64,000 nt of DNA from Candidatus Hydrogenedens sp. (GTDB lineage Bacteria > Hydrogenedentota > Hydrogenedentia > Hydrogenedentales > Hydrogenedentaceae). Shown piece after piece: positions 3,621-55,755 of the stretch. Below the pieces are notes generated by a model that was given only the letters and a program-made list of their open reading frames with translations, was not told the DNA's origin and searched no databases. The stretch lies in the NCBI GenBank assembly GCA_049968235.1, contig JBMFRC010000012.1, forward strand, positions 32,001 through 96,000. The letters run 5' to 3'. The translations under genes were made by a program, and so were the position numbers. Within the stretch, counting starts at the first letter, position 1. Every line of letters starts with the position of its first letter.

Positions 3621-5843
3621 TTATCTTACATATTGTTTTCTGATATGTAATGCAGAACAGAAAGTCATTACACATACAATTAATACAATTGTTAATGTTG
3701 AACTAACAGGAACTTCATCTGAAATGATAACATGAAATTCATAAGTAGCATTGGTTTTCTGTCCATCATCATATTCACAAATGTATATTCCTGTATCCTC
3801 AATTTGTGCGTTGGGAATCCAGAGGGAACGGCAATGAGTATTTAATCCTCTTTCTTCTAAACTACCATTTAGTTTGGACCAATTAAATGAAGAATTCATA
3901 GATACAGGTTCCGGAACACGCAAGCATATATCAGACCCTGCTTTGAAAATTCCGCCCAATGTTGAAGAAGAATGGCATTCTTCACAATCCGAACCGGGAT
4001 ATACAACAGGATTTAATGCAGAATTAATATATGCCTGTTTTTTCTCTTCATAACTCATATGTGAACGGACAAAATATTCATATTCCTGTTTATTTGTCCA
4101 GCCATCCCCATCCGCATCACCATCAGGACCGAAAAATTGAGGTAGAAGTTGATAGAAGGTAGGAACAATGATATTTACATGTATATTGAAACTGGGGTCT
4201 ATAGCCTGTGCTGCTATAGAAATTACAGTCGGTATCATCGTGGATTCTTGATTACCTAAGGTCATGTATCCTGCTAACATTTGTGGCAAACCATAAAATA
4301 TGGTATTTACGATACTTCCTTCACCACCACAGTCTGTAATCATTCGTTGCATGTTTTGGTTGAAAGCATTCACAGCAATTTGATGACTTATACCGCCATT
4401 GGCAGTAAAATCAATAGATGTATTGTTATAACATTCCGTGATAAGTGAAAATTCTAACGAATCTAACATGCCATTTCCGGAAATAACAATAGGGTCTATA
4501 GATATTTGTCCACCATTCAAATCACATTCTTCAGGACTAAACGAAAGTCCTTCTGCTCCCTGGTCTCCTAATAAAACATAATATGCACTTAAATTTTCAT
4601 GTAAATATTGCATACCTGCTACAATTTCATGGTCAGGTTGCCTTATAAAATCATGATACTCCCAAACGCCGTTATAACAAAAATCTCCATTGCCTTCTGT
4701 ATTTCCCGTGCCGGGTCCTCCTAATGGTTTTGAAGTGCTATCTACAATAGTATCATCATCAATTACACAAAGTGTAACATTTCCTACTGCCCCTGCAGTA
4801 TCTACAACCACATTGTAAACTTGATTACCCTGAACATTATTGACAGATAAGATAGAAAGGGGAGAGGATAAACTATCCTTTGCATTAAAATCAGATGTAT
4901 CAACATTAGAAACAGGTTCACTAAAAGTTACAGAAAAAGTCATTGTATTTCCGTTAGAAGAAATACTATTAATTAAATAAACTTTTGGATAATCCAACCA
5001 TTGACTAATGAATTCCGACATGCATCTCTGGGCTAATATTTTATAACCTGCTTGAGATAAATGTATATCCCCATCAAACAGTCCATCAGGATGAACTAAT
5101 GAACATGGGTCTCCTCCGGGAAAAGGTGTATAGGTGGGATAATTACCTGGATAAGGGACAGAATGAGGGGGCAAATTTGTGGGAGTTGATGTCCCAAAAT
5201 GATATTGCATTAACCCAAGATTATGAACATAATAAACTCGTGGCTTGCTATCTGCCAGAGCCTTTTTGGCTTGTTCAAATCTTACAAAAGCATTTTGCTG
5301 GTCACATATTGAACAACCACCACGGTCTCTGCCTGCAAAAGTATATCCACAAAGAGCAACGCGAATATCGGGACGAACTGAAAGAATTTCATCAATAATA
5401 CCACTCATATAATTTACAATCGTATTAATAATGTATTCTTCCTGGGATGGATTAGAAAGCATATCACAATTCCAACGAGATGTTTGTGGAGTTCCTCGAA
5501 GGAAATCATTTCCTCCTAATGTTATCAATACAATATCAATTGTAGGATATTTTGCTAATTCTTCCTTTACATTTTGAATATAATTATATTCTTCAGGGTA
5601 AAATTCAAATGCTCGTGCTCCCATAATAGCAGTACGACTACCTATCTCTCTTAAATGTTCCATTCCAGGTGTTTCGTTAAAAATTTCTTTAAAGGTTCTA
5701 AATGCCCACATAAAACCAGTCCAACTATCACCGACTAATAGAACCCGTGGAATTTCCTCTTGAGAAAATGCAACAGAACTATCTATGAGAATAAGTAAAG
5801 ATAAGAAACAAATCAAGAATAAACTTAAAATACTATGTTTCAT
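3621..5843 (-). CDS. secreted multidomain SGNH/GDSL-family hydrolase with Ca-binding repeat, Ig-like domain and C-terminal TM anchor
   Basis: Signal peptide. SGNH blocks VLLVGDSWTG (I), LGGNDF (III) and DGDIHLS (V). A DGDADGDGWTNKQE thrombospondin-type-3-like Ca-binding repeat. A C-terminal Ig-like segment (GIYICEY...YEFHV) followed by a hydrophobic stretch LTIVLIVCVMTFCSAL. Confidence 0.65.
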   Translation of the reverse strand: MKHSILSLFLICFLSLLILIDSSVAFSQEEIPRVLLVGDSWTGFMWAFRTFKEIFNETPGMEHLREIGSRTAIMGARAFEFYPEEYNYIQNVKEELAKYPTIDIVLITLGGNDFLRGTPQTSRWNCDMLSNPSQEEYIINTIVNYMSGIIDEILSVRPDIRVALCGYTFAGRDRGGCSICDQQNAFVRFEQAKKALADSKPRVYYVHNLGLMQYHFGTSTPTNLPPHSVPYPGNYPTYTPFPGGDPCSLVHPDGLFDGDIHLSQAGYKILAQRCMSEFISQWLDYPKVYLINSISSNGNTMTFSVTFSEPVSNVDTSDFNAKDSLSSPLSILSVNNVQGNQVYNVVVDTAGAVGNVTLCVIDDDTIVDSTSKPLGGPGTGNTEGNGDFCYNGVWEYHDFIRQPDHEIVAGMQYLHENLSAYYVLLGDQGAEGLSFSPEECDLNGGQISIDPIVISGNGMLDSLEFSLITECYNNTSIDFTANGGISHQIAVNAFNQNMQRMITDCGGEGSIVNTIFYGLPQMLAGYMTLGNQESTMIPTVISIAAQAIDPSFNIHVNIIVPTFYQLLPQFFGPDGDADGDGWTNKQEYEYFVRSHMSYEEKKQAYINSALNPVVYPGSDCEECHSSSTLGGIFKAGSDICLRVPEPVSMNSSFNWSKLNGSLEERGLNTHCRSLWIPNAQIEDTGIYICEYDDGQKTNATYEFHVIISDEVPVSSTLTIVLIVCVMTFCSALHIRKQYVR

Positions 5844-5993
5844 TTTTGTCTCCTTTTTATTTATGTTATGTAATAAAAAACAATAATTAAACTAAATAAA
5901 TTATAGCAATAAAAAAAGAAAAAAATCAATAAAATATACTTAAGAGATATTTTTTTAATAAAAGAAAAAATTTTAATGAAAAGTATTTTAAAT

Positions 5994-6022
5994 TTGACAA
6001 GGAGTAAACAGTGTGCTATAAT
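5994..6022 (+). promoter_or_regulatory. sigma70-type promoter of the rex/hnd operon
   Basis: TTGACA (5994-5999), 17-bp spacer, extended -10 TGcTATAAT (6014-6022). This sits in an AT-rich divergent intergenic region about 80 bp upstream of the rex start. Confidence 0.5.
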
Positions 6023-6040
6023 TTGTTCATAAATTCACAA
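6023..6040 (+). promoter_or_regulatory. putative Rex operator 1 (TTGTTCATAAATTCACAA)
   Basis: 18-bp imperfect palindrome resembling the Rex box TTGTGAA-N4-TTCACAA (right half perfect, outer TTGT/ACAA conserved). It abuts the -10 box. Confidence 0.5.
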
Positions 6041-6066
6041 TTATACTTACAGGTAAGTATATAAAT

Positions 6067-6084
6067 TTGTTTGTAAATTCACAA
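6067..6084 (+). promoter_or_regulatory. putative Rex operator 2 (TTGTTTGTAAATTCACAA)
   Basis: Second copy of the same 22-nt direct repeat (20/22 identical to 6022-6043), 44 bp downstream of operator 1, between the promoter and the rex start. Confidence 0.45.
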
Positions 6085-6101
6085 TTAAAAGTATAAAGTA
6101 T

Positions 6102-6797
6102 ATGGTATCTGAGAAAACAGTAGAAAGATTAAGTTTATACCGCCGAATACTTCAACAATTGAGGGTCGAGAGTAAAGAAACTATAATGTCCCATGAACTT
6201 GCGAATATGTTACACATAAAGCCAGCACAGGTACGCAGGGATATTATGCAATTAGGTTATTCAGGAATACCTAATAGTGGTTATAGAATTCGACCTCTTT
6301 TAGAGAGTATTGCAAATTTTTTAGATTCCCCGTTGCCTCAGAGTGCTGTTTTAGTAGGTGTTGGACATTTAGGACTTGCGTTATTGGCTAACTTTGCAGG
6401 ACGATGGAGGCAATTAGCTATTCGTGCCTCTTTTGATAAAGACCCTGCAAAAGTAGGACAGACTTTTCATGGTTGTCGTTGTTATGCTATGTGTGATTTG
6501 CAAAAAGTAATTGCGGAGACAAAAAGTGTAGTAGGCATCCTGGCAATACCGGGTGAAAGTGCCCAATCTGTTTGTGACCTTCTTGTTCAGTCAGGTATTA
6601 GTGGCGTATTAAATTTTTCCCCATTGCGAATTAAAGTGCCTGATAATGTCTTTATAGAACATGTTGACCTTTCCGCTACGTTTGAAAAAGTTTCGTTCTT
6701 TGCAAGAAGAATGAAACATTATGCAGAAGAAGAAAAACGGAAAGTAGAAAATGAAATTACTGAGGGTGAATACGAAACATTAACAACCAATCAATAA
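6102..6797 (+). CDS. rex: redox-sensing transcriptional repressor Rex
   Basis: N-terminal wHTH (KTVERLSLYRRIL) and Rossmann GxGxxG (LVGVGHLGLAL), typical Rex architecture, with an acidic C-terminal tail. It sits at the head of an NADH-linked hydrogenase operon. Confidence 0.85.
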   Translation: MVSEKTVERLSLYRRILQQLRVESKETIMSHELANMLHIKPAQVRRDIMQLGYSGIPNSGYRIRPLLESIANFLDSPLPQSAVLVGVGHLGLALLANFAGRWRQLAIRASFDKDPAKVGQTFHGCRCYAMCDLQKVIAETKSVVGILAIPGESAQSVCDLLVQSGISGVLNFSPLRIKVPDNVFIEHVDLSATFEKVSFFARRMKHYAEEEKRKVENEITEGEYETLTTNQ

Positions 6798-6823
6798 ATA
6801 AAAAATTTTGTAGGAGATAGAAT

Positions 6824-7348
6824 ATGAATGAAGAATCAAAGCATGCGTGTATGGAAGAAGCAAGTGAAGAAGAACTGCTTGCTCGGCTTGATGAAGTAAT
6901 TGCAGAATATAAGGACAAGCCCGGTGCTCTTATTCCTGTTCTGCAGATTGCTCAGGCTATGTTTGGTTATCTACCCGAAAGTGCATTAAAAAAGATTAGT
7001 TTGGGACTGAACAAACCGTATAGTGAAGTTGCAGGTGTGGTAACATTTTACTCATTCTTTTCAACCCAGCCTCGTGGAAAACATATGATTCGTGTCTGTT
7101 TAGGAACTGCTTGTTATGTCCGTGGTGGCAAACAGGTTCTTTCTGCAATTAAGGATAAACTCCATATTGATGTTGGAGAGACCACGAAAGACCGTATGTT
7201 CTCTTTAGAGGTGGCTCGTTGTTTTGGTGCTTGTGGGCTTGCTCCTGCCATTATGGTGGATAACGATGTGCATCAACGGGTAAAACCTGCCCGAATTCAG
7301 GCTATTTTAGACCAGTATTTAGACAAAAACACAGAAAAAAATAAATAA
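6824..7348 (+). CDS. hndA: NuoE-like [2Fe-2S] thioredoxin-fold subunit of bifurcating hydrogenase (HndA)
   Basis: CLGTAC...CFGAC Cys pattern of NuoE/HoxE/HndA; AGGAGA RBS 8 nt upstream; order hndA-hndB-hndC-hydA. Confidence 0.85.
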   Translation: MNEESKHACMEEASEEELLARLDEVIAEYKDKPGALIPVLQIAQAMFGYLPESALKKISLGLNKPYSEVAGVVTFYSFFSTQPRGKHMIRVCLGTACYVRGGKQVLSAIKDKLHIDVGETTKDRMFSLEVARCFGACGLAPAIMVDNDVHQRVKPARIQAILDQYLDKNTEKNK

Positions 7349-7370
7349 GAAATAAATAAGGAGAAAAGCC

Positions 7371-7742
7371 ATGTCAAATATTATTCATTCTCCAGAAGAC
7401 CTTAATGCTTTACGAGAAAAGGCAATTAAGGACATTGAGATTCGTAATTCACATAAAGATTTGGTGATTACTGTTCACATGGGAACATGTGGTATTGCTG
7501 CGGGTGCCAGAGAAGTATTAAAAAATATCATCTCTGAAATTTCTGCTATAGGTATAACCAATGTTACAGTCCGTCAATCTGGATGTGCAGGTCTCTGCGA
7601 CCGTGAACCCATGATTACGGTTACTCATAAATCCTCCGGTTCTGAATATCGTTATGGAAAATTAAACACGGAAAAGATACGAGAAATTGTGAAACAGCAT
7701 ATTGCAGAAGGTAAACCTGTGATGGAATATTTAATTTCCTGA
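7371..7742 (+). CDS. hndB: small [2Fe-2S] ferredoxin-like subunit (HndB-like)
   Basis: 123 aa; HMGTCGIAAGA...CAGLCDREP thioredoxin-like [2Fe-2S] fold; size and position match HndB of tetrameric Hnd hydrogenases. Confidence 0.7.
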   Translation: MSNIIHSPEDLNALREKAIKDIEIRNSHKDLVITVHMGTCGIAAGAREVLKNIISEISAIGITNVTVRQSGCAGLCDREPMITVTHKSSGSEYRYGKLNTEKIREIVKQHIAEGKPVMEYLIS

Positions 7743-7825
7743 TGAAGAAATACAGGGTAAATTCGGATTCCCATAAAGTGGTTGAGATGAACATGTATAG
7801 CAAAATAAGAAAGAATGATATAGAA

Positions 7826-9271
7826 ATGAAAATGAACATATTACATCTATTTCTTATTTTATTTTTATGTTCATCCGCAACCTTTACTGAAATATCTGAT
7901 TGGGAAACCATCTCACTTTCGGATACAGGAGAAGCATTACAAAATCCCGGCATGGGATGGGTATTACATTTTTACGATAATGTTCCTGAAAATTATGGTT
8001 CTAAATTAGCCCCTTCAGATACTGTTGATGAATTCCCTGCCCTTTCAGTTATTTATTTGCGAATAGCATGGTCGTTTTTAGAACCTGAAGAAGGAAAGTA
8101 TAACTGGTCTATATTGGATACTCCTTCTCAACGATGGATTTCTAAAGGGAAACAAATTGCTTTGCGCATTACCTGTAGTGAAACTCCTATTCCATGGGCG
8201 ACACCAAAATGGGTTTATGAAGCAGGAGCCAAAGGTAATTTCTTCATTCCTACCCAGGGGATAAAAGAAAATGGGACACATTGGGAACCCGAATTTGATG
8301 ACCCTGTTTTCTTGGATAAGTTGGATAATTTTTTAGCAGTGTTAGCAAAGAGATATGATGAAAATCCGGAAATAGCCTTCATAGATATGGGTTCATTAGG
8401 AGTGTGGGGAGAAGGTCATGTATGGCATTCCACACAAAAACATATTTCGACGGAAACCATAAAAAAACACATTGATTTGCACATAAAGCACTTTAAAAAC
8501 ACAATAATTGCTCTAAATGATGACCTTATCACAAATGGGCAAAAATTGGATGTAATTCCCGAAGAGAAAAAAGAACTCCTCAATTATGCTATCAAAAATG
8601 GGTTAACACTTCGCGATGATAGTATTCTTGTTCAGGGTGGAGATAATGTATATTTTAGTGCAAGCCTTGCGGAATACTTCTGGCGAAATAGACCTATCAT
8701 TTTAGAATCTGAACATTATGGACCATCAAAGGCTGAAAGGCATTGGGGGGACGGAAGTAAATATTTACAGGCTGTAGAAGATTACCATGCAAGTTATACT
8801 TCTATTCATTGGTGGCCAAGGGAGTTTTTACAAGAAAACAAAGATTTGATAGATAAAATCAATCTTCGTTTGGGGTATCGTATTGTCCCTACCGAAGTTA
8901 AATGGCAAAAGACAGTAAAAATATCCGAGAAAAAATGGGATATATCCTACCGTTGGGCAAATAAAGGAGTGGCACCTTGTTATCGGGATGTATATCCCAT
9001 TATTACATGGAAAGATGAGAAAGGAGGAATTGTTGCTGTTTTTACAGATGAGACATTTAATCTCAAACAATTACCAATAGGGAAGCAGGATGAATTAAAA
9101 GAAATTGAGGTAAAAAAATCTTTTTTTATTCCTTTTTTATTGAAAGAAGGAAATTATACAGTATTCATTTCAGCGGGTTCTATTACGGGCACGCCTGAAA
9201 TTCAATTACCGTTAAACAACACAGACCATGAAAAAAGATATGTTATAGGTAAAGTTAATGTTGTTTTGTGA
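7826..9271 (+). CDS. secreted glycoside-hydrolase-like TIM-barrel protein (DUF4874/DUF4832, GH42-related)
   Basis: Motifs QNPGMGW and WSFLEPEEGKYNW (the W-x-LEP-x-EG-x-Y block of GH42-like/DUF4874 proteins). The track ORF starts at 7742 (overlapping the hndB stop), but a signal peptide MKMNILHLFLILFLCSSA begins at 7826, so that is taken as the start. The gene looks AT-richer than flanking hnd genes. Confidence 0.6.
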   Translation: MKMNILHLFLILFLCSSATFTEISDWETISLSDTGEALQNPGMGWVLHFYDNVPENYGSKLAPSDTVDEFPALSVIYLRIAWSFLEPEEGKYNWSILDTPSQRWISKGKQIALRITCSETPIPWATPKWVYEAGAKGNFFIPTQGIKENGTHWEPEFDDPVFLDKLDNFLAVLAKRYDENPEIAFIDMGSLGVWGEGHVWHSTQKHISTETIKKHIDLHIKHFKNTIIALNDDLITNGQKLDVIPEEKKELLNYAIKNGLTLRDDSILVQGGDNVYFSASLAEYFWRNRPIILESEHYGPSKAERHWGDGSKYLQAVEDYHASYTSIHWWPREFLQENKDLIDKINLRLGYRIVPTEVKWQKTVKISEKKWDISYRWANKGVAPCYRDVYPIITWKDEKGGIVAVFTDETFNLKQLPIGKQDELKEIEVKKSFFIPFLLKEGNYTVFISAGSITGTPEIQLPLNNTDHEKRYVIGKVNVVL

Positions 9272-9342
9272 AAAAAAATATAAAGATATAAATAAAAACT
9301 TCAGAAATGAAGCATACACAAGTTATGGAAAGGAGAAAAAAA

Positions 9343-12300
9343 ATGAGTCCATTTCGAAGTCATGTATTAATCTGTGCAGGTGCAGGATGCGTGGCATCAG
9401 GTTCGATGGAAGTAAGTTCCGCCTTTTCGGAGGCACTTGCCAAACATGGGCTAAATGAAGAAATTCAAGTAGTCCATACAGGATGTTTAGGACCCTGTGC
9501 TATTGGTCCCGTGGTCGTGATTTATCCAGATGCTATTTTTTATCAAGGTGTTAAAACAACAGATGTTGAAGATATTGTTGTTGAGCATCTGTTAAAAGGT
9601 CGGCCTGTTAGTCGCTTGAATTTCAAATCTACTACCACATCACAAATTATTCCTGCACTGCAGGAGATTGGTTTTTTCAAGCAACAGACAAAGATAGTTT
9701 TAAGGAACTGTGGTATTATAGACCCTACAAAAATTGAGGAGTATATTGCGAGAGATGGGTATCAGGCTTTAGCAAAAGTACTGACAAAAATGACTCCACA
9801 GCAGGTAGTAGAAGAAGTGAAAAAATCTGGACTTCGGGGAAGAGGTGGTGCAGGATTCCCAACAGGTATAAAGTGGGAGTTAACTCAAAAAGCCCACGGA
9901 GATAAGAAATATGTTCTTTGTAATGCTGATGAAGGTGACCCGGGCGCATTTATGGACAGAAGTGTTTTGGAAGGTGACCCCCATAGTGTTATTGAAGCTA
10001 TGATTATAGCAGGATATGCCATTGGTTCTGACCAGGGATATATTTATGTTCGAGCAGAATATCCTTTAGCGGTAGAGAGATTAAATATAGCGATAAAGCA
10101 AGCCAGAGAATATGGTTTGTTAGGTAAGAATATTATGGGAACGAATTTTAATTTCGACCTTGAAATACGAATGGGTTCAGGTGCTTTTGTGTGTGGAGAA
10201 GAAACCGCATTGATGCGTTCTATCGAAGGGAAACGCGGAGAACCCAGACCCCGTCCACCGTTCCCTGCATATAAAGGTTTATGGGAAAAACCCAGTTTAT
10301 TAAATAATGTAGAAACCTATGCAAACATCCCTGTAATTATATTAAAAGGTGCTGATTGGTTTGCTTCCATAGGAACAGGTAAAAGTAAAGGAACAAAAGT
10401 GTTTGCCTTAGCAGGTGCTGTAAACAACACAGGATTGGTCGAAATTCCGATTGGTACACCATTAGGTGAAATTATTTATGATATTGGCGGTGGAATTCCG
10501 CGAGGCAAACAATTTAAGGCAGCGCAAATTGGAGGTCCTTCCGGCGGTTGTATTCCAAAACAACATCTGAATGTGCCGGTAGATTACGAGTCATTACAGG
10601 AATTAGGAGCGATTATGGGTTCCGGTGGATTAATTGTTATGGATGAAGACACATGTATGGTCGATATGGCTCGTTTCTTCCTTGACTTTGTTCAGGATGA
10701 GTCATGTGGAAAATGTGTCCCATGCCGGGTCGGAACGAAAAGAATGTTGGAAATTGTGACAAGGATTTGTGAGGGTCGGGGAGAAGAAGGCGATATTGAA
10801 AAACTTATTGAATTAGGACAACAGATTAAAGATGCATCGTTATGTGGATTAGGGCAGACAGCTCCAAACCCTGTTCTTTCTGCAATACGGCACTTCCGTG
10901 ATGAATTTGAAATTCATATTCGTGAACATAAATGTCCGGCGGGTGTCTGTCCATCTCTTGTTCGTGCTCCTTGTATGAGTGCTTGCCCGGCAAATGTTTA
11001 CATTCCGGGTTTTGTCTCATTAATATCTGAAAAACGATATGCGGAAGCACTTCGTGTGCATCGTGACCAGAACCCCTTTGCATCTGTATGTGCCCGTGTG
11101 TGTTTCCATACTTGTGAGGACAAATGTAGAAGAGCTACTCTGGATGAAGCGGTATCCATACGCGGATTGAAGCGATTTATGGTAGAGCAAGAAGTTACAA
11201 TACAACTACCTGAAATTCGTGAAAATGAACAAAATCTTCGCAAAAAGGTGGCTATTATAGGAGCAGGTCCTGCAGGTCTAACCTGTGCTTATTTCCTTGC
11301 ACGATTAGGCTATCAACCCCGTGTTTTTGAATCTGCACCCAGGCCCGGCGGTATGTTAGTTCAAACAATTCCCGCTTATCGGTTACCCCGAGAAGAATTG
11401 GCTCGAGAAATTCGTATGATAGAAAGAATGGGCGTTGTCATAGAAACTGAAAAAGCCTTAGGTCGTGATTTTACATTACAAAGCCTTCGTGATGATGGAT
11501 ATGAGGCTATTTTTCTCGGAATAGGTGCTCCATCAGGTCAAAAATTGAGAATTCCAGGCGAAGATGCGGATGGCGTTGTCGAAGCCATAGACTTCCTTCG
11601 TGAATACAATCTCCGTGGTTCTGTTCCTGTAGGGAAAAATGTTGTTATTATAGGAGGTGGTAATGCAGCTATTGATGCGGCAAGAACTGCCATTCGTTTA
11701 GGAGCAAAAAAAGCAACGATTCTTTACCGCAGAACAAGAGAAGAGATGCCTGCGTATAAAGAAGAGATCGAAGAAGCAGTTAATGAAGGTGTTATTTTAA
11801 AAATGTTAGTAACTCCACTGGAGATTTTGACAGAAAACGGAAAAGTTGTTGGTGTAAAATGTCAACACATGTGGTTAGGAGAATATGACCGTTCCGGTAG
11901 AAGAAGACCTGAAGCCAAAAAGGGTGAAGAACCCTTTGTTGAAGAAGCAGACCAGGTTATTGCAGCAATAGGGCAAACTGTTGATTTAAAACGTTACCTG
12001 GATGGATTAAATGTTAAGTTAACACCTTCTGGTTTCTTGTGGGTAGACCAATTATATGGTCAGACCTCTATTGAATGGTTATTTGCAGGTGGTGATATTA
12101 GTTCAGGTCCTTCTTCCGTAGCAGAAGCAATCGGTGCTGGTGAAAGAGCTGCAGTTGGAATTGATAAGTATCTTACTGGAGAAGAACATGCTTTCTGGCG
12201 CGAACCCTATATGGTAGATACAGAATTTGACCCAGATTCCGACCCGGTAGATTTCCCAAGAGCAAAAATGAAACTTTTACCTGTTGAAAAGAGGGTACAC

Positions 12301-12414
12301 AACTTTAATGAAGTTGAAATCCCGTTTACGGAAACATTAGCGGTAAGAGAGGCACGCCGTTGCTTACGTTGTGATTATCGTGAAACAAAAATAAGTTTAA
12401 ATACACAACAATAA
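9343..12414 (+). CDS. hndC: NuoF-like flavoprotein subunit (HndC) fused to a GltD/NfnB-like NAD(P)H:FAD oxidoreductase domain
   Basis: N-terminal Trx-like [2Fe-2S] (CAGAGC...CLGPC). NuoF core GRGGAGFPTGIKW (FMN) and ESCGKCVPCRVG ([4Fe-4S]). From about 10930: GltD-type Cys clusters (CPAGVCP...CMSACP, CARVCFHTCEDKC) and FAD/NAD(P) fingerprints VAIIGAGPAGL, VVIIGGGNAAID. The track ORF starts at 9307, but AGGAGA sits 8 nt before the ATG at 9343. Confidence 0.8.
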   Translation: MSPFRSHVLICAGAGCVASGSMEVSSAFSEALAKHGLNEEIQVVHTGCLGPCAIGPVVVIYPDAIFYQGVKTTDVEDIVVEHLLKGRPVSRLNFKSTTTSQIIPALQEIGFFKQQTKIVLRNCGIIDPTKIEEYIARDGYQALAKVLTKMTPQQVVEEVKKSGLRGRGGAGFPTGIKWELTQKAHGDKKYVLCNADEGDPGAFMDRSVLEGDPHSVIEAMIIAGYAIGSDQGYIYVRAEYPLAVERLNIAIKQAREYGLLGKNIMGTNFNFDLEIRMGSGAFVCGEETALMRSIEGKRGEPRPRPPFPAYKGLWEKPSLLNNVETYANIPVIILKGADWFASIGTGKSKGTKVFALAGAVNNTGLVEIPIGTPLGEIIYDIGGGIPRGKQFKAAQIGGPSGGCIPKQHLNVPVDYESLQELGAIMGSGGLIVMDEDTCMVDMARFFLDFVQDESCGKCVPCRVGTKRMLEIVTRICEGRGEEGDIEKLIELGQQIKDASLCGLGQTAPNPVLSAIRHFRDEFEIHIREHKCPAGVCPSLVRAPCMSACPANVYIPGFVSLISEKRYAEALRVHRDQNPFASVCARVCFHTCEDKCRRATLDEAVSIRGLKRFMVEQEVTIQLPEIRENEQNLRKKVAIIGAGPAGLTCAYFLARLGYQPRVFESAPRPGGMLVQTIPAYRLPREELAREIRMIERMGVVIETEKALGRDFTLQSLRDDGYEAIFLGIGAPSGQKLRIPGEDADGVVEAIDFLREYNLRGSVPVGKNVVIIGGGNAAIDAARTAIRLGAKKATILYRRTREEMPAYKEEIEEAVNEGVILKMLVTPLEILTENGKVVGVKCQHMWLGEYDRSGRRRPEAKKGEEPFVEEADQVIAAIGQTVDLKRYLDGLNVKLTPSGFLWVDQLYGQTSIEWLFAGGDISSGPSSVAEAIGAGERAAVGIDKYLTGEEHAFWREPYMVDTEFDPDSDPVDFPRAKMKLLPVEKRVHNFNEVEIPFTETLAVREARRCLRCDYRETKISLNTQQ

Positions 12415-12431
12415 TAAAAGGAGAATAAGCC

Positions 12432-14204
12432 ATGCCAAAATTAACTATAGATGGAATTCCCGTAGAAGTTCCGGAAGGAACAACAATACTTCAAGCGGCA
12501 AAGCAAATAGGATTAAAAATACCGACACTTTGTTATCTTGAAGAAGTTCAAGCCATCGGTGCCTGTCGTGTTTGCGTTGTTGAAGTTGAAGGAGCACGAA
12601 CTTTGGTCGCTTCTTGTGTTGCTCCTGTTGCGGAAGGAATGAAAGTCCATACAAATTCAAAAAGAGCCCGTGAGGCACGAAAAACAGTTGTAGAATTGTT
12701 ACTATCCGACCATGATGGCGATTGCCAGATTTGTGTTCGAAATGAAGATTGTGAACTTCAGGAATTGGCACGAACACTTGGGATAAAGGAAATTCGCTAT
12801 CAAGGTGAGAAGAGAAAACGGATTGTGGATGAAAGCACTCCCGCTGTTGTTCGTGATACATCGAAATGTGTCTTATGTAGAAGATGTATAACGGTTTGCA
12901 ATGAGGTTCAGGGTGTTGGCGGACTGTTCCCACAAAATCGTGGCTTTGAAACGGTAATAGGTCCCGCATTTTGTAGTGATTTGGATGATGTCGTATGTGT
13001 TCAGTGTGGTCAATGTAGTGCGGTTTGTCCTGTGGGTGCTATTGTAGAAAGAGACCAGATTGCGGATGTCTTTTCTGCATTAGATGACCCGACAAAAACA
13101 GTCGTTGTCCAGACAGCCCCTGCAATTCGTGCCGCATTGGGAGAATGTTTTGGTTTACCACCCGGAACTTTAGTAACAGGGAAGATGGTTACCGCACTTC
13201 GTAGACTGGGTTTCCATGCCGTTTTTGATACTAACTTTGCCGCTGACCTTTGTATTATGGAAGAAGGTACAGAACTGCTAACTCGATTGAAGAAAAAACT
13301 GGTAGATGGGGAGAATATTGCTCTTCCTATGTTTACCAGTTGTTCTCCGGGGTGGATTAAGTTTTTAGAACATTTCTACCCGGATATGATTCCAAATGTA
13401 TCTACATGCAAATCCCCACAGCAAATGTTTGGTGCTATAGCAAAGACCTATTATTCCAAGAAAATTGGTAAGAAACCCGAAGATATTGTTGTTGTTTCTA
13501 TTATGCCCTGTACAGCGAAGAAATATGAACATCAGCGTCCCGAGATGAACAGTTCCGGTGTTCGTGATGTGGACTATGTGCTTACAACGCGTGAATTGGG
13601 TCGGATGATAAAACAGGCAGGCATTGATTTTGTAAATCTACCCGATGACAAGCAAGACTCACCATTAGGACTATCCTCTGGTGCTGCGGATATTTTTGCG
13701 AATACCGGGGGTGTTATGGAAGCGGCAATTCGAACTGTTTATGAAATAGTAACAGGACGCGAATTACCATTCGATGGACTTCATGTTGCTCCTATCGAAG
13801 GATTAGAAGGAATCAAGGAAGCCTCCTTGAAGATAGAAAAATGTGTGCCTGAATGGTCTTTCTTAGAAGGGGCTACCGTAAATGTTGCTGTGGCTCATGG
13901 ATTGGGTAATGCCAGAGCATTAATAGAGCGAGTTCGCTCAGGTGAAAAGGCGTATCACTTTATAGAAATTATGACCTGTCCCGGTGGATGTATTGGTGGA
14001 GGAGGACAACCTCGCTTTACAGATAATTCAGTTCGTCTTGCTCGTATTCAGGCCATATACAAAGAGGATGAAGGGAAACAACTTCGTAAGTCCCATGTAA
14101 ATCCTGACATACAAAAATTGTATAAGGAATTTTTAGGACATCCGAATAGTGAAGTTTCACATCATCTATTACATACGCATTACAATCCGAGAACAAAAGT
14201 ATAA
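12432..14204 (+). CDS. hydA: [FeFe]-hydrogenase catalytic subunit, M3-type (HndD/HydA)
   Basis: N-terminal plant-type [2Fe-2S]; His-ligated [4Fe-4S] (HDGDCQICVRNEDC); two ferredoxin-like CxxCxxCxxxCP motifs; H-cluster motifs L2 MPCTAKKYE and L3 EIMTCPGGCIGGGGQP; L1 is present as FTSCSPGW, which is non-canonical. Confidence 0.9.
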   Translation: MPKLTIDGIPVEVPEGTTILQAAKQIGLKIPTLCYLEEVQAIGACRVCVVEVEGARTLVASCVAPVAEGMKVHTNSKRAREARKTVVELLLSDHDGDCQICVRNEDCELQELARTLGIKEIRYQGEKRKRIVDESTPAVVRDTSKCVLCRRCITVCNEVQGVGGLFPQNRGFETVIGPAFCSDLDDVVCVQCGQCSAVCPVGAIVERDQIADVFSALDDPTKTVVVQTAPAIRAALGECFGLPPGTLVTGKMVTALRRLGFHAVFDTNFAADLCIMEEGTELLTRLKKKLVDGENIALPMFTSCSPGWIKFLEHFYPDMIPNVSTCKSPQQMFGAIAKTYYSKKIGKKPEDIVVVSIMPCTAKKYEHQRPEMNSSGVRDVDYVLTTRELGRMIKQAGIDFVNLPDDKQDSPLGLSSGAADIFANTGGVMEAAIRTVYEIVTGRELPFDGLHVAPIEGLEGIKEASLKIEKCVPEWSFLEGATVNVAVAHGLGNARALIERVRSGEKAYHFIEIMTCPGGCIGGGGQPRFTDNSVRLARIQAIYKEDEGKQLRKSHVNPDIQKLYKEFLGHPNSEVSHHLLHTHYNPRTKV

Positions 14205-14223
14205 GATAAGATTTAATAATAAA

Positions 14224-14247
14224 GGGGAGTGTGAGTGAGCACTCCCC
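14224..14247 (+). terminator. weak hairpin after hydA (possible attenuating terminator)
   Basis: GGGGAGTG/CACTCCCC 8-bp stem with an 8-nt loop, but no downstream U-tract. Confidence 0.3.
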
Positions 14248-14329
14248 ATACAATCCTATGAAGTTGTATAATAGGAATATAGGTAGGAGTAAGTAGGTTT
14301 ATGAGTGTCTAATATTTAGGAAAGAAAAA

Positions 14330-14725
14330 ATGGAAAATAAAATTATAATGGTCGTTGATGATGATATTGATGTTCAGGATTTCTGTAAAATTGTATTAGG
14401 AAGAGAGGATTATCAGGTTATAACATTTTCCAACTCAGAGAGTGCACTCGAATATTTATCGTCGAACACTCCCTCTGTAATTATTACCGATTTAATGATG
14501 GGTGGAATTGATGAGGGTGTCCAATTTGTTAATAAGATTAGAGGATTCGATAATGAGAAGGCAAAAATTCCAATTATAATGATTACAGGCATAAATTCAA
14601 AATTAGGATATGACATCACTCCCCGTTCCGATGAAGAAAAAAAACAAATGAAAATCGATGAATTTATATCAAAACCTTTAAATCCAAAACAGTTAATAAC
14701 AGCACTAAAAAAAGTAATCAAATAG
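14330..14725 (+). CDS. single-domain response regulator (CheY-like receiver)
   Basis: VVDDD acidic pocket, phospho-acceptor Asp in ITDLMMGG, conserved Lys in ISKPL; 131 aa, no output domain. Confidence 0.75.
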   Translation: MENKIIMVVDDDIDVQDFCKIVLGREDYQVITFSNSESALEYLSSNTPSVIITDLMMGGIDEGVQFVNKIRGFDNEKAKIPIIMITGINSKLGYDITPRSDEEKKQMKIDEFISKPLNPKQLITALKKVIK

Positions 14726-14777
14726 AAATTTGTTTCGTATAGATACTGTTTAATTTATAAATATAAGGAAATGAGTT

Positions 14778-16175
14778 ATGAGTTCAAATGTAGAAACTGT
14801 TCCTATTAATGAGGAATTTATTTTTGATACTTTAAAAAATAGTGTCAAGAAAGATGCGGTTTACATCAAAGAAATTCTTGCAAAAGCCCTTGAATTAAAG
14901 GGATTAGATGCGACAGAAGTAGCCACGCTTGCAACAATAAGTGACCCTGACCTGTTAAAAGAACTTTTCGATACAGCCCGAAAAGTCAAAGAGGAGATTT
15001 ACGGTAAACGATTAGTTCTTTTTGCCCCACTTTATGTATCAAATCTTTGCAAGAATGAATGCTTATATTGTGCTTTCCGTAAAAGTAACAAGATGGTTCG
15101 TAGAAAAGCATTGACACAAGAAGAAGTCCGTAGAGAGGTTGAAACATTGGTTGACCAGGGGCATAAACGCATTCTATTAGTGGCAGGCGAGTCCTATCCT
15201 TCCGAAGGATTTGATTATGTTATTCATTGTATCGAAACAATATATAGTGTAAAGCGGGATAGGGGAGAGATACGACGCGTAAATGTGAATATAGCACCCT
15301 TATCGTTAGAGGAATTTAAAAGGCTGAAATCAGCAAAAATTGGGACATATCAGTTATTTCAAGAAACATACCACAGAGAAACATACCAAAAAGTCCATGT
15401 AGGTGGACTTAAAAAGGATTTTGACTGGAGAATTACCGCTATGGACCGTGCTATGAAAGCTGGCATTGATGATGTGGGTGTTGGCGTTCTTTTTGGCTTA
15501 TTTGATTGGAGATTTGAAATACTTGCTTTAATGCAACATATTAAACATTTAGAAGATACCTTCGGTGTAGGATGTCACACGATAAGTGTACCTCGCCTTG
15601 AACCTGCTATAGGTTCAGACCTGGCTTCACATCCCCCTTATCCGGTATCAGACCTTGATTTCAGAAAAATTGTAGCTATACTAAGACTTGCTGTGCCCTA
15701 TACAGGAATAATAATGTCCACTCGTGAAACTCCCAATATACGAAGAGAAACCTTTGCACTGGGTGTATCACAAATATCAGCAGGCAGTAGAACGAATCCA
15801 GGTGGGTATACAGGCAGTGAAGAAGAGGATATGAGCCAATTCTCATTAGGTGACCATCGCAGTCTGGATGAGGTTATTCGTGATGTTACAAAATTAGGTT
15901 ATATCCCATCCTTCTGCACGGCTTGTTATCGTTTAGGCAGAACAGGTGCTGACTTTATGGACCTTGCCAAGCCGGGTCTTATCAAGAACCATTGTGAAGT
16001 TAATGCTTTAAGCACTTTTGCTGAATATCTGGAAGATTATGCATCCTCCGAAACAAAACAAATAGGTTGGGCAAAGATTGAGGAAATTTTAAATACAATG
16101 CCTGAAGTTCGGAAAAAACGTACCGAAGGGATGTTGGCTCGTGTAAAAGCCGGTGAACGGGATGTATATGTGTAA
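14778..16175 (+). CDS. hydG: [FeFe]-hydrogenase H-cluster radical SAM maturase HydG
   Basis: CKNECLYCAF radical-SAM motif (ThiH-like) plus C-terminal CTACYR...NHC (Cx2Cx22C) auxiliary cluster motif; 465 aa. Confidence 0.9.
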   Translation: MSSNVETVPINEEFIFDTLKNSVKKDAVYIKEILAKALELKGLDATEVATLATISDPDLLKELFDTARKVKEEIYGKRLVLFAPLYVSNLCKNECLYCAFRKSNKMVRRKALTQEEVRREVETLVDQGHKRILLVAGESYPSEGFDYVIHCIETIYSVKRDRGEIRRVNVNIAPLSLEEFKRLKSAKIGTYQLFQETYHRETYQKVHVGGLKKDFDWRITAMDRAMKAGIDDVGVGVLFGLFDWRFEILALMQHIKHLEDTFGVGCHTISVPRLEPAIGSDLASHPPYPVSDLDFRKIVAILRLAVPYTGIIMSTRETPNIRRETFALGVSQISAGSRTNPGGYTGSEEEDMSQFSLGDHRSLDEVIRDVTKLGYIPSFCTACYRLGRTGADFMDLAKPGLIKNHCEVNALSTFAEYLEDYASSETKQIGWAKIEEILNTMPEVRKKRTEGMLARVKAGERDVYV

Positions 16176-16180
16176 ATCTT

Positions 16181-17602
16181 ATGTCAGACTACCGAATTGA
16201 AACCGACTTATTGGGTGAAAAAAAGATACCTGCGGATGTCTATTGGGGTATACATACTGCTCGTGCAGTAGAAAATTTTCCTGTTTCCCGACTCTCGGTT
16301 CATTCAGAATTAATCCAATCTTATGGAATTGTAAAACTTGCATGTGCAAAAATAAATTATTCGTTAGGATACTTATTACATCCTCCTGATAAATCATCTG
16401 CCATATTTAACGCTTGCGAAGAAGTAGCAATTGGTAAATGGAATGACCATATTATCGTGGATGCTCTACAGGGTGGAGCAGGAACCAGCACAAATATGAA
16501 TATTAATGAGGTTATTGCCAACCGTGCCCTAGAAATATTGGGCTTACCACGGGCAAAATATGACATTATTTCCCCATTAGATGATATAAATCTTCACCAA
16601 TCGACTAACGATACTTATCCTACCGCCCTGAAACTTGCTACGATAAGGATGTTAAGAAAATTAGAATCAGAAATTATTCTTCTTTTAGAGACATTTCAAA
16701 CACTTGAAAAACAATTTTCGGACATAGTAAAAATTGGAAGGACAGAACTTCAAGATGCAACGCCTATTACATTAGGTAGGGAGATGGGTGCTTATGCAGA
16801 TGCCCTAGTAAGAGACCGTTGGCGTATCTATAAGTGTGAAGAAAGATTGCGAGTAGTTAATTTAGGAGGCACCGCAATAGGAACAGGTTTAGGAGCACCA
16901 AGGGATTATATTTTCCGTGTTGTAGATAATCTGCGAGAGTTATCAAATATCGGTTTTTCGCGAGCAGAAAATTTAGTAGATGCAACTCAAAATCTCGATG
17001 TATTTGGGGAAGTATCAGGTATCATTCGTTCCTATGCCATAACGCTTAATAAAATAGCCAATGATTTGAGACTAATGTCATCCGGACCCGAAGCAGGTCT
17101 CCGTGAAATTCAACTTCCACAATTACAAGCGGGTTCATCTATTATGCCAGGGAAAGTGAACCCTGTTTTGCCTGAAGCGGTATGCCAGGTTGCAATGCTA
17201 ACATTTGGATTCGACCAGATTATCACATATGGCTGTTCTTCCGGAAACCTTGAACTAAATCCTTTTGTCCCTTTGATTGCTCATTGTTTGTTAAATATGA
17301 TTGAAATGTTAACAAATGTAACAAAATTATTTACGGAAAAATGTATTAAAGGAATTTCGCCGAACCGAGAGGTTTGTGTTTCCTATGTGAATAATTCTAC
17401 AGCAACTCTAACCGCACTTATACAGAAGATAGGATATGAAAAAGCATGTATGATTGCTAAAAAAACAAGTAATTTGAAAAAGAGTATTCGAGAAATTGTA
17501 TTGGAAGAAGGAGTTTTGACTCCTGAAGAATTTGATACTCTTTTAAGTCCTGAGTCCGTTTGTAAATTAGGATTTGTTGACACCAGTAATGAGATAGATT
17601 AG
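16181..17602 (+). CDS. aspartate ammonia-lyase / class-II fumarase family lyase
   Basis: Fumarate-lyase signature GSSIMPGKVNPV; N-terminus similar to AspA (DLLGEKKIPADVYWGIHTARA); 473 aa. Confidence 0.8.
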   Translation: MSDYRIETDLLGEKKIPADVYWGIHTARAVENFPVSRLSVHSELIQSYGIVKLACAKINYSLGYLLHPPDKSSAIFNACEEVAIGKWNDHIIVDALQGGAGTSTNMNINEVIANRALEILGLPRAKYDIISPLDDINLHQSTNDTYPTALKLATIRMLRKLESEIILLLETFQTLEKQFSDIVKIGRTELQDATPITLGREMGAYADALVRDRWRIYKCEERLRVVNLGGTAIGTGLGAPRDYIFRVVDNLRELSNIGFSRAENLVDATQNLDVFGEVSGIIRSYAITLNKIANDLRLMSSGPEAGLREIQLPQLQAGSSIMPGKVNPVLPEAVCQVAMLTFGFDQIITYGCSSGNLELNPFVPLIAHCLLNMIEMLTNVTKLFTEKCIKGISPNREVCVSYVNNSTATLTALIQKIGYEKACMIAKKTSNLKKSIREIVLEEGVLTPEEFDTLLSPESVCKLGFVDTSNEID

Positions 17603-55695: not shown

Positions 55696-55755
55696 GCTAT
55701 AATAAAAAATTCTATTTATTGTAATTATATAAACAATAACTATCACTTCTACATT

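What the first reader, a model, noticed from the sequence alone, without database searches (positions are those of the whole stretch)
7742..9271. Secreted glycoside-hydrolase-like gene embedded between hndB and hndC of a cytoplasmic hydrogenase operon
hndA-hndB and hndC-hydA are tightly linked on the same strand, but a 509-aa ORF with a cleavable signal peptide and GH42-like/DUF4874 motifs (NPGMGW, WSFLEPEEGKYNW) sits between them. It looks AT-richer than its neighbours by eye and has its own start about 84 nt after the hndB stop. An exported carbohydrate-active enzyme has no obvious role in a soluble NAD(P)H/ferredoxin hydrogenase. It may be a recent insertion splitting the operon, or a deliberately co-regulated pairing (H2 metabolism with glycan foraging).
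Basis: partly seen in the sequence, partly recalled or inferred. Interest (0 to 1): 0.6.

Follow-up and report, generated by a model that had tools for sequence, protein, structure and literature searches.

The report
Secreted glycosidase gene inside hydrogenase operon
A gene for an exported sugar-cleaving enzyme of unknown specificity sits inside a cytoplasmic hydrogen-producing enzyme operon in one group of Candidatus Hydrogenedens bacteria, where it is an old, inherited insertion rather than a recent one, so it is a curious but modest operon variant.

Summary
A signal-peptide-bearing ORF (7826-9271; maximal ORF starts at 7742) lies between hndB and hndC of a rex-hndA-hndB-X-hndC-hydA [FeFe]-hydrogenase operon. 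It hits Pfam DUF4832 and, partially, GH42. It does not hit DUF4874.

"Recent insertion" is refuted.
- GC (0.358) and GC3 (0.272) match the window background. The hydrogenase genes are GC-richer only at codon positions 1 and 2.
- All 15 distinct loci whose homologue is at least 64% identical carry it at the same position. Synonymous sites are saturated and dN/dS is 0.07-0.11.
- These copies form one clade.

It is still lineage-specific. Three nearest outgroup operons (HndC 75-85% identical), 79 operons from other phyla and 73 more distant DUF4832 loci lack the arrangement.

Regulatory signals found: one perfect sigma-70 promoter with two Rex boxes upstream of rex, and one strong hairpin after hydA. 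The spacers flanking the gene hold neither a promoter match nor a terminator-like hairpin. Co-transcription under Rex is therefore inferred, not shown.

The protein models as a (beta/alpha)8 barrel plus beta-sandwich, nearest to GH14 and GH42/GH35 folds, with all family-invariant acidic residues kept. Substrate is unknown. The only characterised protein of this architecture is a streptococcal Pel-dispersing hydrolase. The verdict is a new operon variant of known parts, of modest interest.

The parts
3621..5843 (-). Divergent 740-aa secreted SGNH/GDSL-type hydrolase with a signal peptide and a C-terminal hydrophobic anchor. It is syntenic with the operon in the same clade.
   Evidence: Weak GDSL Pfam hits. 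Present upstream of rex in all clade loci with enough flank and absent from the three outgroup loci.
5994..6022 (+). Sigma-70-type promoter (TTGACA, 17 nt, TATAAT, with TG extension). It is the only 12/12 match in 5800-16400.
6023..6040 (+). Rex operator 1, TTGTTCATAAATTCACAA.
   Evidence: Tandem boxes at the equivalent place in 10 clade loci, and one box in L010/L046.
6067..6084 (+). Rex operator 2, TTGTTTGTAAATTCACAA.
6102..6797 (+). rex (redox-sensing repressor).
   Evidence: Pfam Put_DNA-bind_N plus CoA_binding.
6824..7348 (+). hndA / bfuC (NuoE-like 2Fe-2S subunit).
   Evidence: PF01257, 174 bits. NuoE/HoxE NCBIfam hits.
7371..7742 (+). hndB / bfuD (small thioredoxin-like 2Fe-2S subunit).
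   Evidence: PF01257 at 24.4 bits, just under the cut-off. 2Fe-2S ferredoxin NCBIfam hit. Same position as HndB in other operons.
7743..7825 (+). hndB-to-DUF4832 spacer. The frame is open here and holds alternative in-frame starts at 7742, 7787 and 7793. No promoter match and no stable structure.
   Evidence: (z = +1.3). Relatives have spacers of 11-47 nt (L099 from the coordinates).
7826..9271 (+). DUF4832-family secreted glycoside-hydrolase-like gene (481 aa from the NCBI start).
7826..7885 (+). Signal peptide (MKMNILHLFLILFLCSSATF). The Cys is not conserved in relatives, so a Sec/SPase I type is inferred.
   Evidence: AF2 helix at residues 3-17 followed by low pLDDT at 20-22.
7901..8875 (+). 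(beta/alpha)8 barrel, residues 26-350.
8411..8413 (+). E196 (GVWGEGH), on the loop after strand beta-4. Candidate general acid. Invariant in all 59 sequences.
   Evidence: The catalytic role is inferred from its position.
8705..8707 (+). E294 (ILESEH), at the C-terminal end of strand beta-7. Candidate nucleophile or base. Invariant in all 59 sequences.
   Evidence: The catalytic role is inferred from its position.
8180..8194 (+). Residues 119-123 (ETPIP), in the beta3-alpha3 loop on the catalytic face. It carries clade-specific changes: S120T, W121P and R123P. The Arg is 100% conserved in the 45 sequences outside the hnd-linked clade.
   Evidence: Secondary structure.
8882..9265 (+). C-terminal beta-sandwich (the Pfam DUF4832 region), residues 353-480.
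9272..9342 (+). DUF4832-to-hndC spacer. It holds a strong conserved Shine-Dalgarno sequence (GGAAAGGAGA) for hndC and no terminator-like structure.
   Evidence: z = -1.3.
9343..12414 (+). hndC / bfuB: NuoF-like FMN subunit fused to a DPD_II (2x[4Fe-4S]) domain and a GltD-like FAD/NAD(P) domain.
   Evidence: Matches the 'sub-type I BfuB' of PMC11406978.
12432..14204 (+). hydA / bfuA, the [FeFe]-hydrogenase catalytic subunit. No signal peptide.
   Evidence: PF02906 at 330 bits. NF040763 at 907 bits against a cut-off of 765.
14224..14247 (.). GC-rich hairpin (GGGGAGTG...CACTCCCC). It is the only strong structure among the three spacers folded and the probable end of the transcription unit.
   Evidence: Fold z = -5.5.

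Best explanation
The gene encodes a Sec-exported member of the DUF4832 family. The protein has a glycoside-hydrolase-type (beta/alpha)8 barrel and a C-terminal beta-sandwich.

It was inserted once into the short hndB-hndC spacer of a Rex-controlled [FeFe]-hydrogenase operon of the NuoF-GltD-fusion type. That operon corresponds to 'sub-type I BfuABCD' of Zheng and Huang 2024, and the insertion happened in the ancestor of one Candidatus Hydrogenedens lineage. It has since been inherited vertically under purifying selection.

It is not a hydrogenase subunit. It is most likely transcribed as part of a single mRNA, rex-hndA-hndB-DUF4832-hndC-hydA. That mRNA would start at the one strong promoter upstream of rex, which is overlaid by two Rex operators, and end at the hairpin after hydA. 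Production of the exported enzyme would then rise and fall with the hydrogenase when the NADH/NAD+ ratio releases Rex.

Once exported, the enzyme is expected to cleave an extracellular glycan using the invariant acidic residues E196 and E294. The substrate is unknown. Candidates are a foraged glycan, possibly sulfated, or a matrix exopolysaccharide.

Shown: the gene, its family, fold and signal-like N-terminus; native composition; conserved position; a single clade; purifying selection; absence from sister and distant operons; the promoter, Rex boxes and hairpin.

Inferred: co-transcription, Rex control of this gene, export, catalytic residues, substrate, and whether the coupling is adaptive or a tolerated historical accident.
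For: Family and fold:
- Pfam DUF4832 above cut-off, and a partial GH42 hit.
- 2776 homologues at E <= 0.001 among the 8000 candidates scored; many of the 120 listed are named as DUF4832 proteins by their sources.
- AF2 model with mean pLDDT 92.4.
- 84 invariant columns, including E196 and E294, across 59 sequences.
- Signal-like hydrophobic N-termini in 54 of the 59 sequences.

Old, fixed insertion:
- Same gene order in 8 of 8 looked-up clade members and in 7 of 7 metagenome loci at >= 68% identity.
- The hnd-linked sequences form a single clade in the NJ tree.
- dS > 1 in all pairs; dN/dS is 0.07-0.11, against 0.013-0.035 for hndC/hydA and 0.06-0.15 for hndB.
- GC and GC3 equal the window background.

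Lineage-specific:
- Outgroup operons L094-L096 have hndB followed directly by hndC.
- None of 79 operons from other phyla contains it.
- 73 of 73 homologues at <= 63% identity are not hnd-linked.

One transcription unit:
- The only perfect promoter is at 5994-6022.
- Two Rex boxes lie just downstream of it and recur in relatives; none lies inside the operon.
- Neither flanking spacer has a promoter-like or terminator-like hit; their fold z-scores are +1.3 and -1.3, against -5.5 for the hairpin after hydA.
- In relatives the upstream spacer shrinks to 11-17 nt, too short to hold a promoter (L099 from the coordinates).
Against: - There are no transcript data. A promoter inside the hndB coding sequence or in the 3' end of the DUF4832 gene, weaker than the scan threshold or not of sigma-70 type, is not excluded.
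- The hairpin after hydA lacks a T-tract on the + strand.
- No enzymatic activity is known for this clade, and there is no close solved structure.
- The protein evolves much faster than the hydrogenase subunits (64-84% against 90-98% identity).
- It has lost a Trp and an otherwise invariant Arg in an active-site-face loop, so its substrate may differ from the rest of the family.
- Nothing ties its function to H2 metabolism. The placement could be a neutral accident.
Confidence: 0.7

Rival explanations
1. Recent horizontal insertion that split a formerly intact hydrogenase operon.
For: The gene is 5-7 GC points below hndA, hndC and hydA. Sister and distant operons lack it.
Against: GC 0.358 and GC3 0.272 equal the window background. 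The gene is at the same site in 15 distinct loci, with the protein diverged to 64% identity and dS saturated. The linked copies form one clade. hndC and hydA stay under very strong purifying selection, with dN/dS of 0.013-0.035.
Confidence: 0.02
2. The gene is conserved here but is an independent transcription unit. Undetected promoters inside hndB or at the 3' end of the gene would in effect give rex-hndAB, DUF4832 and hndC-hydA as separate units. Its position would then have no regulatory meaning.
For: The consensus scan covers only sigma-70-type sites. The spacer before hndC is 55-73 nt and AT-rich in all relatives. The DUF4832 start has a much weaker Shine-Dalgarno sequence than hndC.
Against: No promoter-like site on the + strand between 7531 and 9719, and no terminator-like hairpin in either spacer. 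The upstream spacer is only 11-17 nt in four relatives (L099 from the coordinates). Rex boxes occur only upstream of rex. HndA/B would need to be made in step with HndC/HydA, which favours one mRNA.
Confidence: 0.15
3. The protein has been recruited to a role connected to the hydrogenase. Examples are a non-catalytic membrane or periplasmic partner, or a device that tethers the polycistronic mRNA to the membrane during co-translational export.
For: Long-term retention exactly between two subunit genes. Clade-specific loss of W121 and R123 in an active-site-face loop. PMC11406978 proposes that sub-type I BfuABCD works with membrane-bound Rnf in this clade.
Against: All 84 family-invariant residues, including the candidate catalytic Glu pair, are kept. 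The N-terminus is signal-like, whereas the hydrogenase subunits have no export signal. The gene is absent from 82 other operons of the same type, which presumably function without it.
Confidence: 0.03
4. Assembly or binning chimera that joins a glycosidase gene to hydrogenase contigs.
For: All sequences come from metagenome assemblies.
Against: The same junctions appear in independent assemblies from NCBI, JGI, ENA and Logan, on contigs up to 172 kb, at several levels of divergence.
Confidence: 0.005

Closest known systems
Sub-type I BfuABCD / Hnd-type electron-bifurcating [FeFe]-hydrogenase operon of Hydrogenedentota (Zheng and Huang 2024, PMC11406978); HndABCD of Solidesulfovibrio fructosivorans
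   Same: Same subunit set and order: NuoE-like HndA/BfuC, small 2Fe-2S HndB/BfuD, NuoF-like HndC/BfuB carrying DPD_II plus FAD/NAD(P) domains, and HydA/BfuA. The maturases HydG, HydF and HydE lie downstream.
   Different: A 1.45-kb gene for an exported glycosidase-like protein lies between bfuD and bfuB. The text of that paper, as held, never mentions it; figures mark non-Bfu genes only as 'X'. The operon here is also headed by rex and carries Rex boxes.
Streptococcus intermedius SIR_1591, a DUF4832-containing Pel-dispersing glycoside hydrolase (PMC12345266)
   Different: It lies in a pel exopolysaccharide locus, whereas no pel genes are in this window. Its substrate (Pel) cannot be assumed for this protein.
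GH42 / GH35 beta-galactosidases (clan GH-A)
   Different: Only about 100 of 376 GH42 profile positions match. There are no GH42 trimerisation or C-terminal domains. There is no N-E motif at the end of strand beta-4. Identity is 10-16%. This protein is exported, whereas GH42 enzymes are typically cytoplasmic (my own knowledge).
GH14 beta-amylases
   Different: 11-13% identity. No sequence-level hit to GH14 in Pfam or PDB searches.

Membership tests
Pfam DUF4832 (PF16116) family | Score above the Pfam gathering threshold | tested here: met
   39.3 bits against a cut-off of 29.2, E = 7.6e-10. All 120 listed homologues carry PF16116.
Pfam DUF4832 (PF16116) family | TIM-barrel catalytic domain followed by a C-terminal beta-sandwich | tested here: met
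   AF2 model with mean pLDDT 92.4: barrel at residues 26-350, beta-sandwich at 353-480. Same layout as described for SIR_1591.
Pfam DUF4874 | Pfam hit to the DUF4874 model | tested here: not met
   No hit at E <= 0.01.
GH42 beta-galactosidase | Full-length match to the Glyco_hydro_42 catalytic domain | tested here: inconclusive
   33.1 bits against a cut-off of 21, but only profile positions 32-131 of 376 match. PDB GH42 chains hit at E = 0.009-0.09 over the same stretch.
GH42 beta-galactosidase | Glyco_hydro_42M trimerisation domain and Glyco_hydro_42C domain | tested here: not met
   Neither domain was found. The C-terminal domain is DUF4832 instead.
GH42 beta-galactosidase | Acid/base Glu in an N-E motif at the end of strand beta-4, and a nucleophile Glu at the end of strand beta-7 | tested here: inconclusive
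   Strand beta-4 ends in I-D-M-G, with invariant D187; invariant E196 lies 9 residues later. Invariant E294 is at the end of strand beta-7. There is no N-E motif.
GH14 beta-amylase | Sequence membership (Pfam Glyco_hydro_14 or PDB sequence hits) | tested here: not met
Pel-locus DUF4832 hydrolase (SIR_1591 type) | Located in or next to pel biosynthesis genes | tested here: not met
   No pel-type genes among the ORFs of at least 150 aa annotated across the 64-kb window.
Pel-locus DUF4832 hydrolase (SIR_1591 type) | Hydrolysis or dispersal of Pel polysaccharide | not testable with these tools
   This needs purified protein. Activity is reported only for SIR_1591.
Hnd / sub-type I BfuABCD hydrogenase (the operon) | NuoE-like, small 2Fe-2S and NuoF-like (with DPD_II plus FAD/NAD(P) domains) subunits, and a group A [FeFe] HydA | tested here: met
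   Pfam and NCBIfam hits. The domain layout matches PMC11406978.
Hnd / sub-type I BfuABCD hydrogenase (the DUF4832 protein as a subunit) | Present in operons of this type generally | tested here: not met
   Absent from 79 operons of other phyla and from 3 nearest outgroup operons.
Rex regulon | Rex operator (TTGTGAA-N4-TTCACAA-like) in the promoter region | tested here: met
   Two exact matches to TTGTN7TTCACAA at 6023-6040 and 6067-6084, directly after the -10 box. They are conserved in relatives. Binding was not tested.

The most novel reading that the evidence does not exclude
The embedded enzyme is not a foraging glycosidase. It is a redox-gated remodeller of an extracellular matrix polysaccharide, as SIR_1591 is for Pel. 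When NADH builds up, for example because H2 accumulates and the bifurcating hydrogenase stalls, Rex derepression would raise both the hydrogenase and a secreted matrix hydrolase. The hydrolase would loosen or reshape aggregates, changing contact with H2-consuming partners. This would be a direct genetic link between intracellular redox state and aggregate architecture in a syntroph. The clade-specific loss of W121 and R123 on the catalytic face would mark the change of substrate that came with this recruitment.
Probability: 0.08. Interest if true: 0.6.

Novelty: new variant of a known kind. Interest (0 to 1): 0.33.

Why it matters
If co-transcription is confirmed, this would be an evolutionarily stable case of an exported carbohydrate-active enzyme wired into the Rex-controlled operon of a cytoplasmic electron-bifurcating hydrogenase. 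Extracellular polymer breakdown, or matrix remodelling, would then be expressed in step with fermentative H2 production in an uncultured phylum common in anaerobic digesters.

It also gives a natural example of an operon tolerating a 1.45-kb unrelated gene between subunit genes for a long time. And it flags a large, highly conserved secreted protein family: inter-phylum identity to the query is 50-63% among the best hits retrieved, there is no solved structure, and only one distant member has been characterised.

If the placement is only a historical accident, the finding is a footnote to the published catalogue of Hydrogenedentota hydrogenase clusters.

Tried and rejected
- Compositional foreignness: tested and rejected.
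- Internal promoters, terminators or Rex boxes flanking the gene: none found. The one near-match, at 9266-9283 on the minus strand, has a poor second half-site and was not found in the relatives' spacers inspected by eye.
- Sequence search of PDB with the single protein and with a 59-sequence profile: only marginal GH42/GH35 hits over one motif.
- NCBIfam: no model for this protein.
- Foldseek against afdb50: the library was unavailable.
- Literature on DUF4832 and DUF4874: no biochemical data except SIR_1591.
- The Hydrogenedentota hydrogenase paper and its supplements, searched for the embedded gene: not mentioned in any text held.
- Gene-neighbourhood inference of substrate from 73 unlinked homologues: neighbourhoods are heterogeneous. 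Sulfatase is the commonest neighbour, but only 8 of 121, too weak to assign a substrate.
- Lipoprotein reading of the signal peptide (LFLC): rejected because the Cys is not conserved in relatives.
- The 509-aa reading with a start overlapping the hndB stop (ATGA): judged unlikely. The extension is absent or different in relatives, and it would bury the signal peptide.
- Direct comparison with SIR_1591: not possible, because the sequence could not be obtained.
Full report
**1. What is in the sequence**

The + strand between 5990 and 14250 carries, in order:
- a perfect sigma-70-type promoter (5994-6022; TTGACA, 17 nt, TATAAT with a TG extension);
- two Rex operators (6023-6040 and 6067-6084);
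- rex (6102-6797);
- hndA (6824-7348, NuoE-like);
- hndB (7371-7742, small 2Fe-2S protein);
- the ORF in question (7742/7826-9271);
- hndC (9343-12414; NuoF-like, fused to a DPD_II 4Fe-4S domain and a GltD-like FAD/NAD(P) domain);
- hydA (12432-14204; NCBIfam 'NADH-dependent [FeFe] hydrogenase, group A6', 907 bits against a cut-off of 765).

A response regulator, hydG, an aspartase-like lyase, hydF and a radical-SAM gene, probably hydE (Pfam Radical_SAM only), follow. The best database match names the organism Candidatus Hydrogenedens sp..

The operon corresponds to the 'sub-type I BfuABCD' cluster catalogued for Hydrogenedentota by Zheng and Huang 2024 (PMC11406978). Their text does not mention a gene between bfuD and bfuB.

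**2. The observation**

The ORF, its motifs (NPGMGW, WSFLEPEEGKYNW) and its hydrophobic N-terminus are real.
- Pfam gives DUF4832 (39.3 bits against a cut-off of 29.2) over the C-terminal part.
- Pfam gives Glyco_hydro_42 (33.1 bits against a cut-off of 21) over only about 100 of 376 profile positions.

The 509-aa reading starts at an ATG that overlaps the hndB stop. Relatives have only starts 11-47 nt after their hndB stop, which give a charged N-region of 13-17 residues before the hydrophobic core. So 7787/7793 or 7826 (the NCBI call, 481 aa) is the likely start.

The Cys in LFLC is not conserved in relatives. The signal is therefore probably cleaved by signal peptidase I and is not a lipobox. 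Of the 59 aligned family members, 54 have a comparable hydrophobic N-terminal segment by the hydrophobicity test, including all the hnd-linked ones printed.

**3. Composition**

The gene's GC is 0.358. That is below hndA (0.411), hndC (0.417) and hydA (0.425). But it is identical to the background of 35 long ORFs in the window (0.353 +/- 0.035). Its GC3 (0.272) equals that of hndC (0.266) and hydA (0.289). The hydrogenase genes are GC-richer only at codon positions 1 and 2, which reflects their amino-acid composition. There is no compositional sign of recent foreign origin.

**4. Synteny**

Homologues from the clade were looked up one by one. All 8 sit between hndB and hndC, on contigs from independent NCBI, JGI, ENA and Logan assemblies:
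- the window protein itself;
- P0004 (80% identity);
- P0012 (71%);
- P0011 and P0013 (70% each);
- P0015 (68%);
- P0016 and P0031 (64% each).

A scan of metagenome contigs gave a clean split:
- 7 of 7 loci with a homologue at 68% identity or more are hnd-linked;
- 73 of 73 loci at 63% or less are not.

In a neighbour-joining tree the linked proteins form one clade. Its sister is a 463-aa Armatimonadota-type group that is not linked.

Going the other way, I searched with HndC:
- 79 loci from other phyla have the same fused-HndC operon, and none contains a DUF4832 gene. Where HndB exists, it directly abuts HndC.
- The three closest outgroup operons have HndC at 85, 79 and 75% identity, the last from a Candidatus Hydrogenedentes MAG. 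They read rex-hndA-hndB-hndC-hydA (L094, L095) or hndA-hndB-hndC-hydA with no rex called (L096), with 44-70 nt between hndB and hndC.

So the gene was inserted once, in the ancestor of the lineage whose HndC is at least 90% identical to the window's. It has stayed there since.

**5. Selection**

Synonymous divergence between the clade members compared is saturated (dS 0.8 to more than 3, or not computable).

| Gene | dN/dS |
|---|---|
| DUF4832 gene | 0.07-0.11 |
| hndB | 0.06-0.15 |
| rex | 0.04-0.08 |
| hndC, hydA | 0.013-0.047 |

The gene is therefore functional and constrained, though it evolves faster than the hydrogenase subunits (64-84% against 90-98% identity).

**6. Transcription signals**

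In 5800-16400 the only 12/12 promoter match is the one before rex. No promoter-like site lies on the + strand between 7531 and 9719, and no terminator-like site lies in either spacer.

Folding the junctions gives:
- z = +1.3 for hndB/DUF4832;
- z = -1.3 for DUF4832/hndC;
- z = -5.5 for the GC-rich hairpin at 14224-14247 after hydA.

Tandem Rex boxes recur at the equivalent position in ten clade loci, with one box in L010/L046, and never inside the operon. In four relatives the hndB-DUF4832 spacer is only 11-17 nt (L099 from the coordinates).

The hndC ribosome-binding site (GGAAAGGAGA) is conserved and strong. The DUF4832 site is weak.

Together these point to one Rex-controlled mRNA, with lower translation of the embedded gene. 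This is inference; no transcript data were available.

**7. The protein**

An AlphaFold2 model built on 59 homologues has mean pLDDT 92.4. It shows a (beta/alpha)8 barrel (residues 26-350) and a C-terminal beta-sandwich (353-480).

- all at 10-16% identity.

Sequence searches of the PDB find only marginal GH42/GH35 matches over the W..EPeeG.y.W motif. NCBIfam has no model. No member of this family has a solved structure.

Across phyla the homologues retrieved (the best hits to the query) are strongly conserved: mean column identity is 53%, with 84 invariant columns. The invariant columns include D187 at the end of strand beta-4, E196 in GVWGEGH just after it, and E294 in ILESEH at the end of strand beta-7. 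These are the positions where GH-type barrels place their catalytic carboxylates, so I take E196 and E294 as the candidate catalytic pair (inference).

Seven positions are fixed differently in the hnd-linked clade. Three are S120T, W121P and R123P, and the Arg is 100% conserved in the other 45 sequences. They lie in the beta3-alpha3 loop on the catalytic face. This hints at a changed substrate subsite in the linked clade.

**8. Function**

The only experimentally examined protein with this architecture that I found is Streptococcus intermedius SIR_1591. It has an N-terminal helix, a TIM barrel that resembles beta-amylases and beta-galactosidases, and a DUF4832 sandwich. It is encoded in a pel locus, and the purified protein disperses Pel-dependent aggregates (PMC12345266; PMC7112168).

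The window has no pel genes.

Neighbours of the 73 unlinked homologues are heterogeneous. The commonest family is sulfatase (8 of 121 neighbours), and one homologue is a DUF4832-sulfatase fusion. The window itself encodes a sulfatase, two GH38 enzymes and a large subtilase.

I therefore commit only to 'exported glycoside hydrolase acting on an extracellular glycan'. A foraged, possibly sulfated, glycan and a matrix exopolysaccharide are the two candidates.

**9. Verdict**

- 'Recent insertion' is refuted.
- 'Conserved operon member in one lineage' is supported.
- 'Deliberate co-regulation' is plausible but unproven.

The protein is not a hydrogenase subunit, since 82 operons of the same type lack it. 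The arrangement is a new variant of known parts: a known hydrogenase operon type, plus a member of a known but essentially uncharacterised family.

Interest is modest. It would rise if transcript data showed Rex-gated co-expression and the enzyme turned out to act on a matrix polysaccharide.

Noticed in passing
window 9343-12414 (+): HndC is a 1023-aa fusion of a NuoF-like FMN subunit with a DPD_II 2x[4Fe-4S] domain and a GltD-like FAD/NAD(P) domain. PMC11406978 discusses it as 'sub-type I BfuB', with a possible second (FAD) bifurcation centre. Its cofactor specificity (NADH or NADPH) is untested.
   Followed up: partly
window 3621-5843 (-): A 740-aa signal-peptide protein with a GDSW SGNH-esterase motif, Ig-like regions, a DGDADGDGW calcium-binding-like motif and a C-terminal hydrophobic anchor lies divergent from rex. 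It is syntenic in every clade locus that carries the DUF4832 insert and absent from the three outgroup loci. Two exported hydrolase genes are therefore clade-specific additions at this locus.
   Followed up: partly
window 14224-14247: A perfect GC-rich hairpin (GGGGAGTG-loop-CACTCCCC, fold z = -5.5) lies after hydA. It has an A-rich run before it and no T-run after it on the + strand. The scan scores it as a terminator only for the minus strand, although no minus-strand gene ends there.
   Followed up: partly
window 16181-17602 (+): An aspartase/fumarase-class lyase gene (Lyase_1 plus FumaraseC_C) sits between hydG and hydF within the hydrogenase maturase cluster. The same order is seen in relatives L002, L004 and L097.
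   Followed up: no
window 14330-14725 (+): A stand-alone response-regulator receiver gene (131 aa, GC 0.31) lies between hydA and hydG. It is conserved in most clade loci, but in the L007 lineage a GFO_IDH_MocA oxidoreductase takes its place.
   Followed up: no
L107-L115 (metagenome loci), about 75-92 nt downstream of the DUF4832 gene: The Armatimonadota-type 463-aa DUF4832 genes (sister clade) are followed in most of these loci (L107, L108, L110-L112, L114, L115, as in L013) by a conserved gene of about 208 aa on the same strand, with no called Pfam domain in L013. It may be a true functional partner of the family.
   Followed up: no
L176 and L104 (same ENA sample ERZ795060); L177 and L098 (same JGI sample Ga0116167): Samples holding an hnd-linked DUF4832 gene also hold a second, unlinked homologue at 51% identity on another contig. 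Whether that is a paralogue in the same organism or belongs to a different organism was not resolved.
   Followed up: no
window 24968-27769, 34874-37396, 50780-52069 (+), 52078-55770 (-): Two GH38 alpha-mannosidase-like genes, a sulfatase and a 1230-aa subtilase lie in the same 64 kb. This fits a lifestyle of degrading polymers.
   Followed up: no
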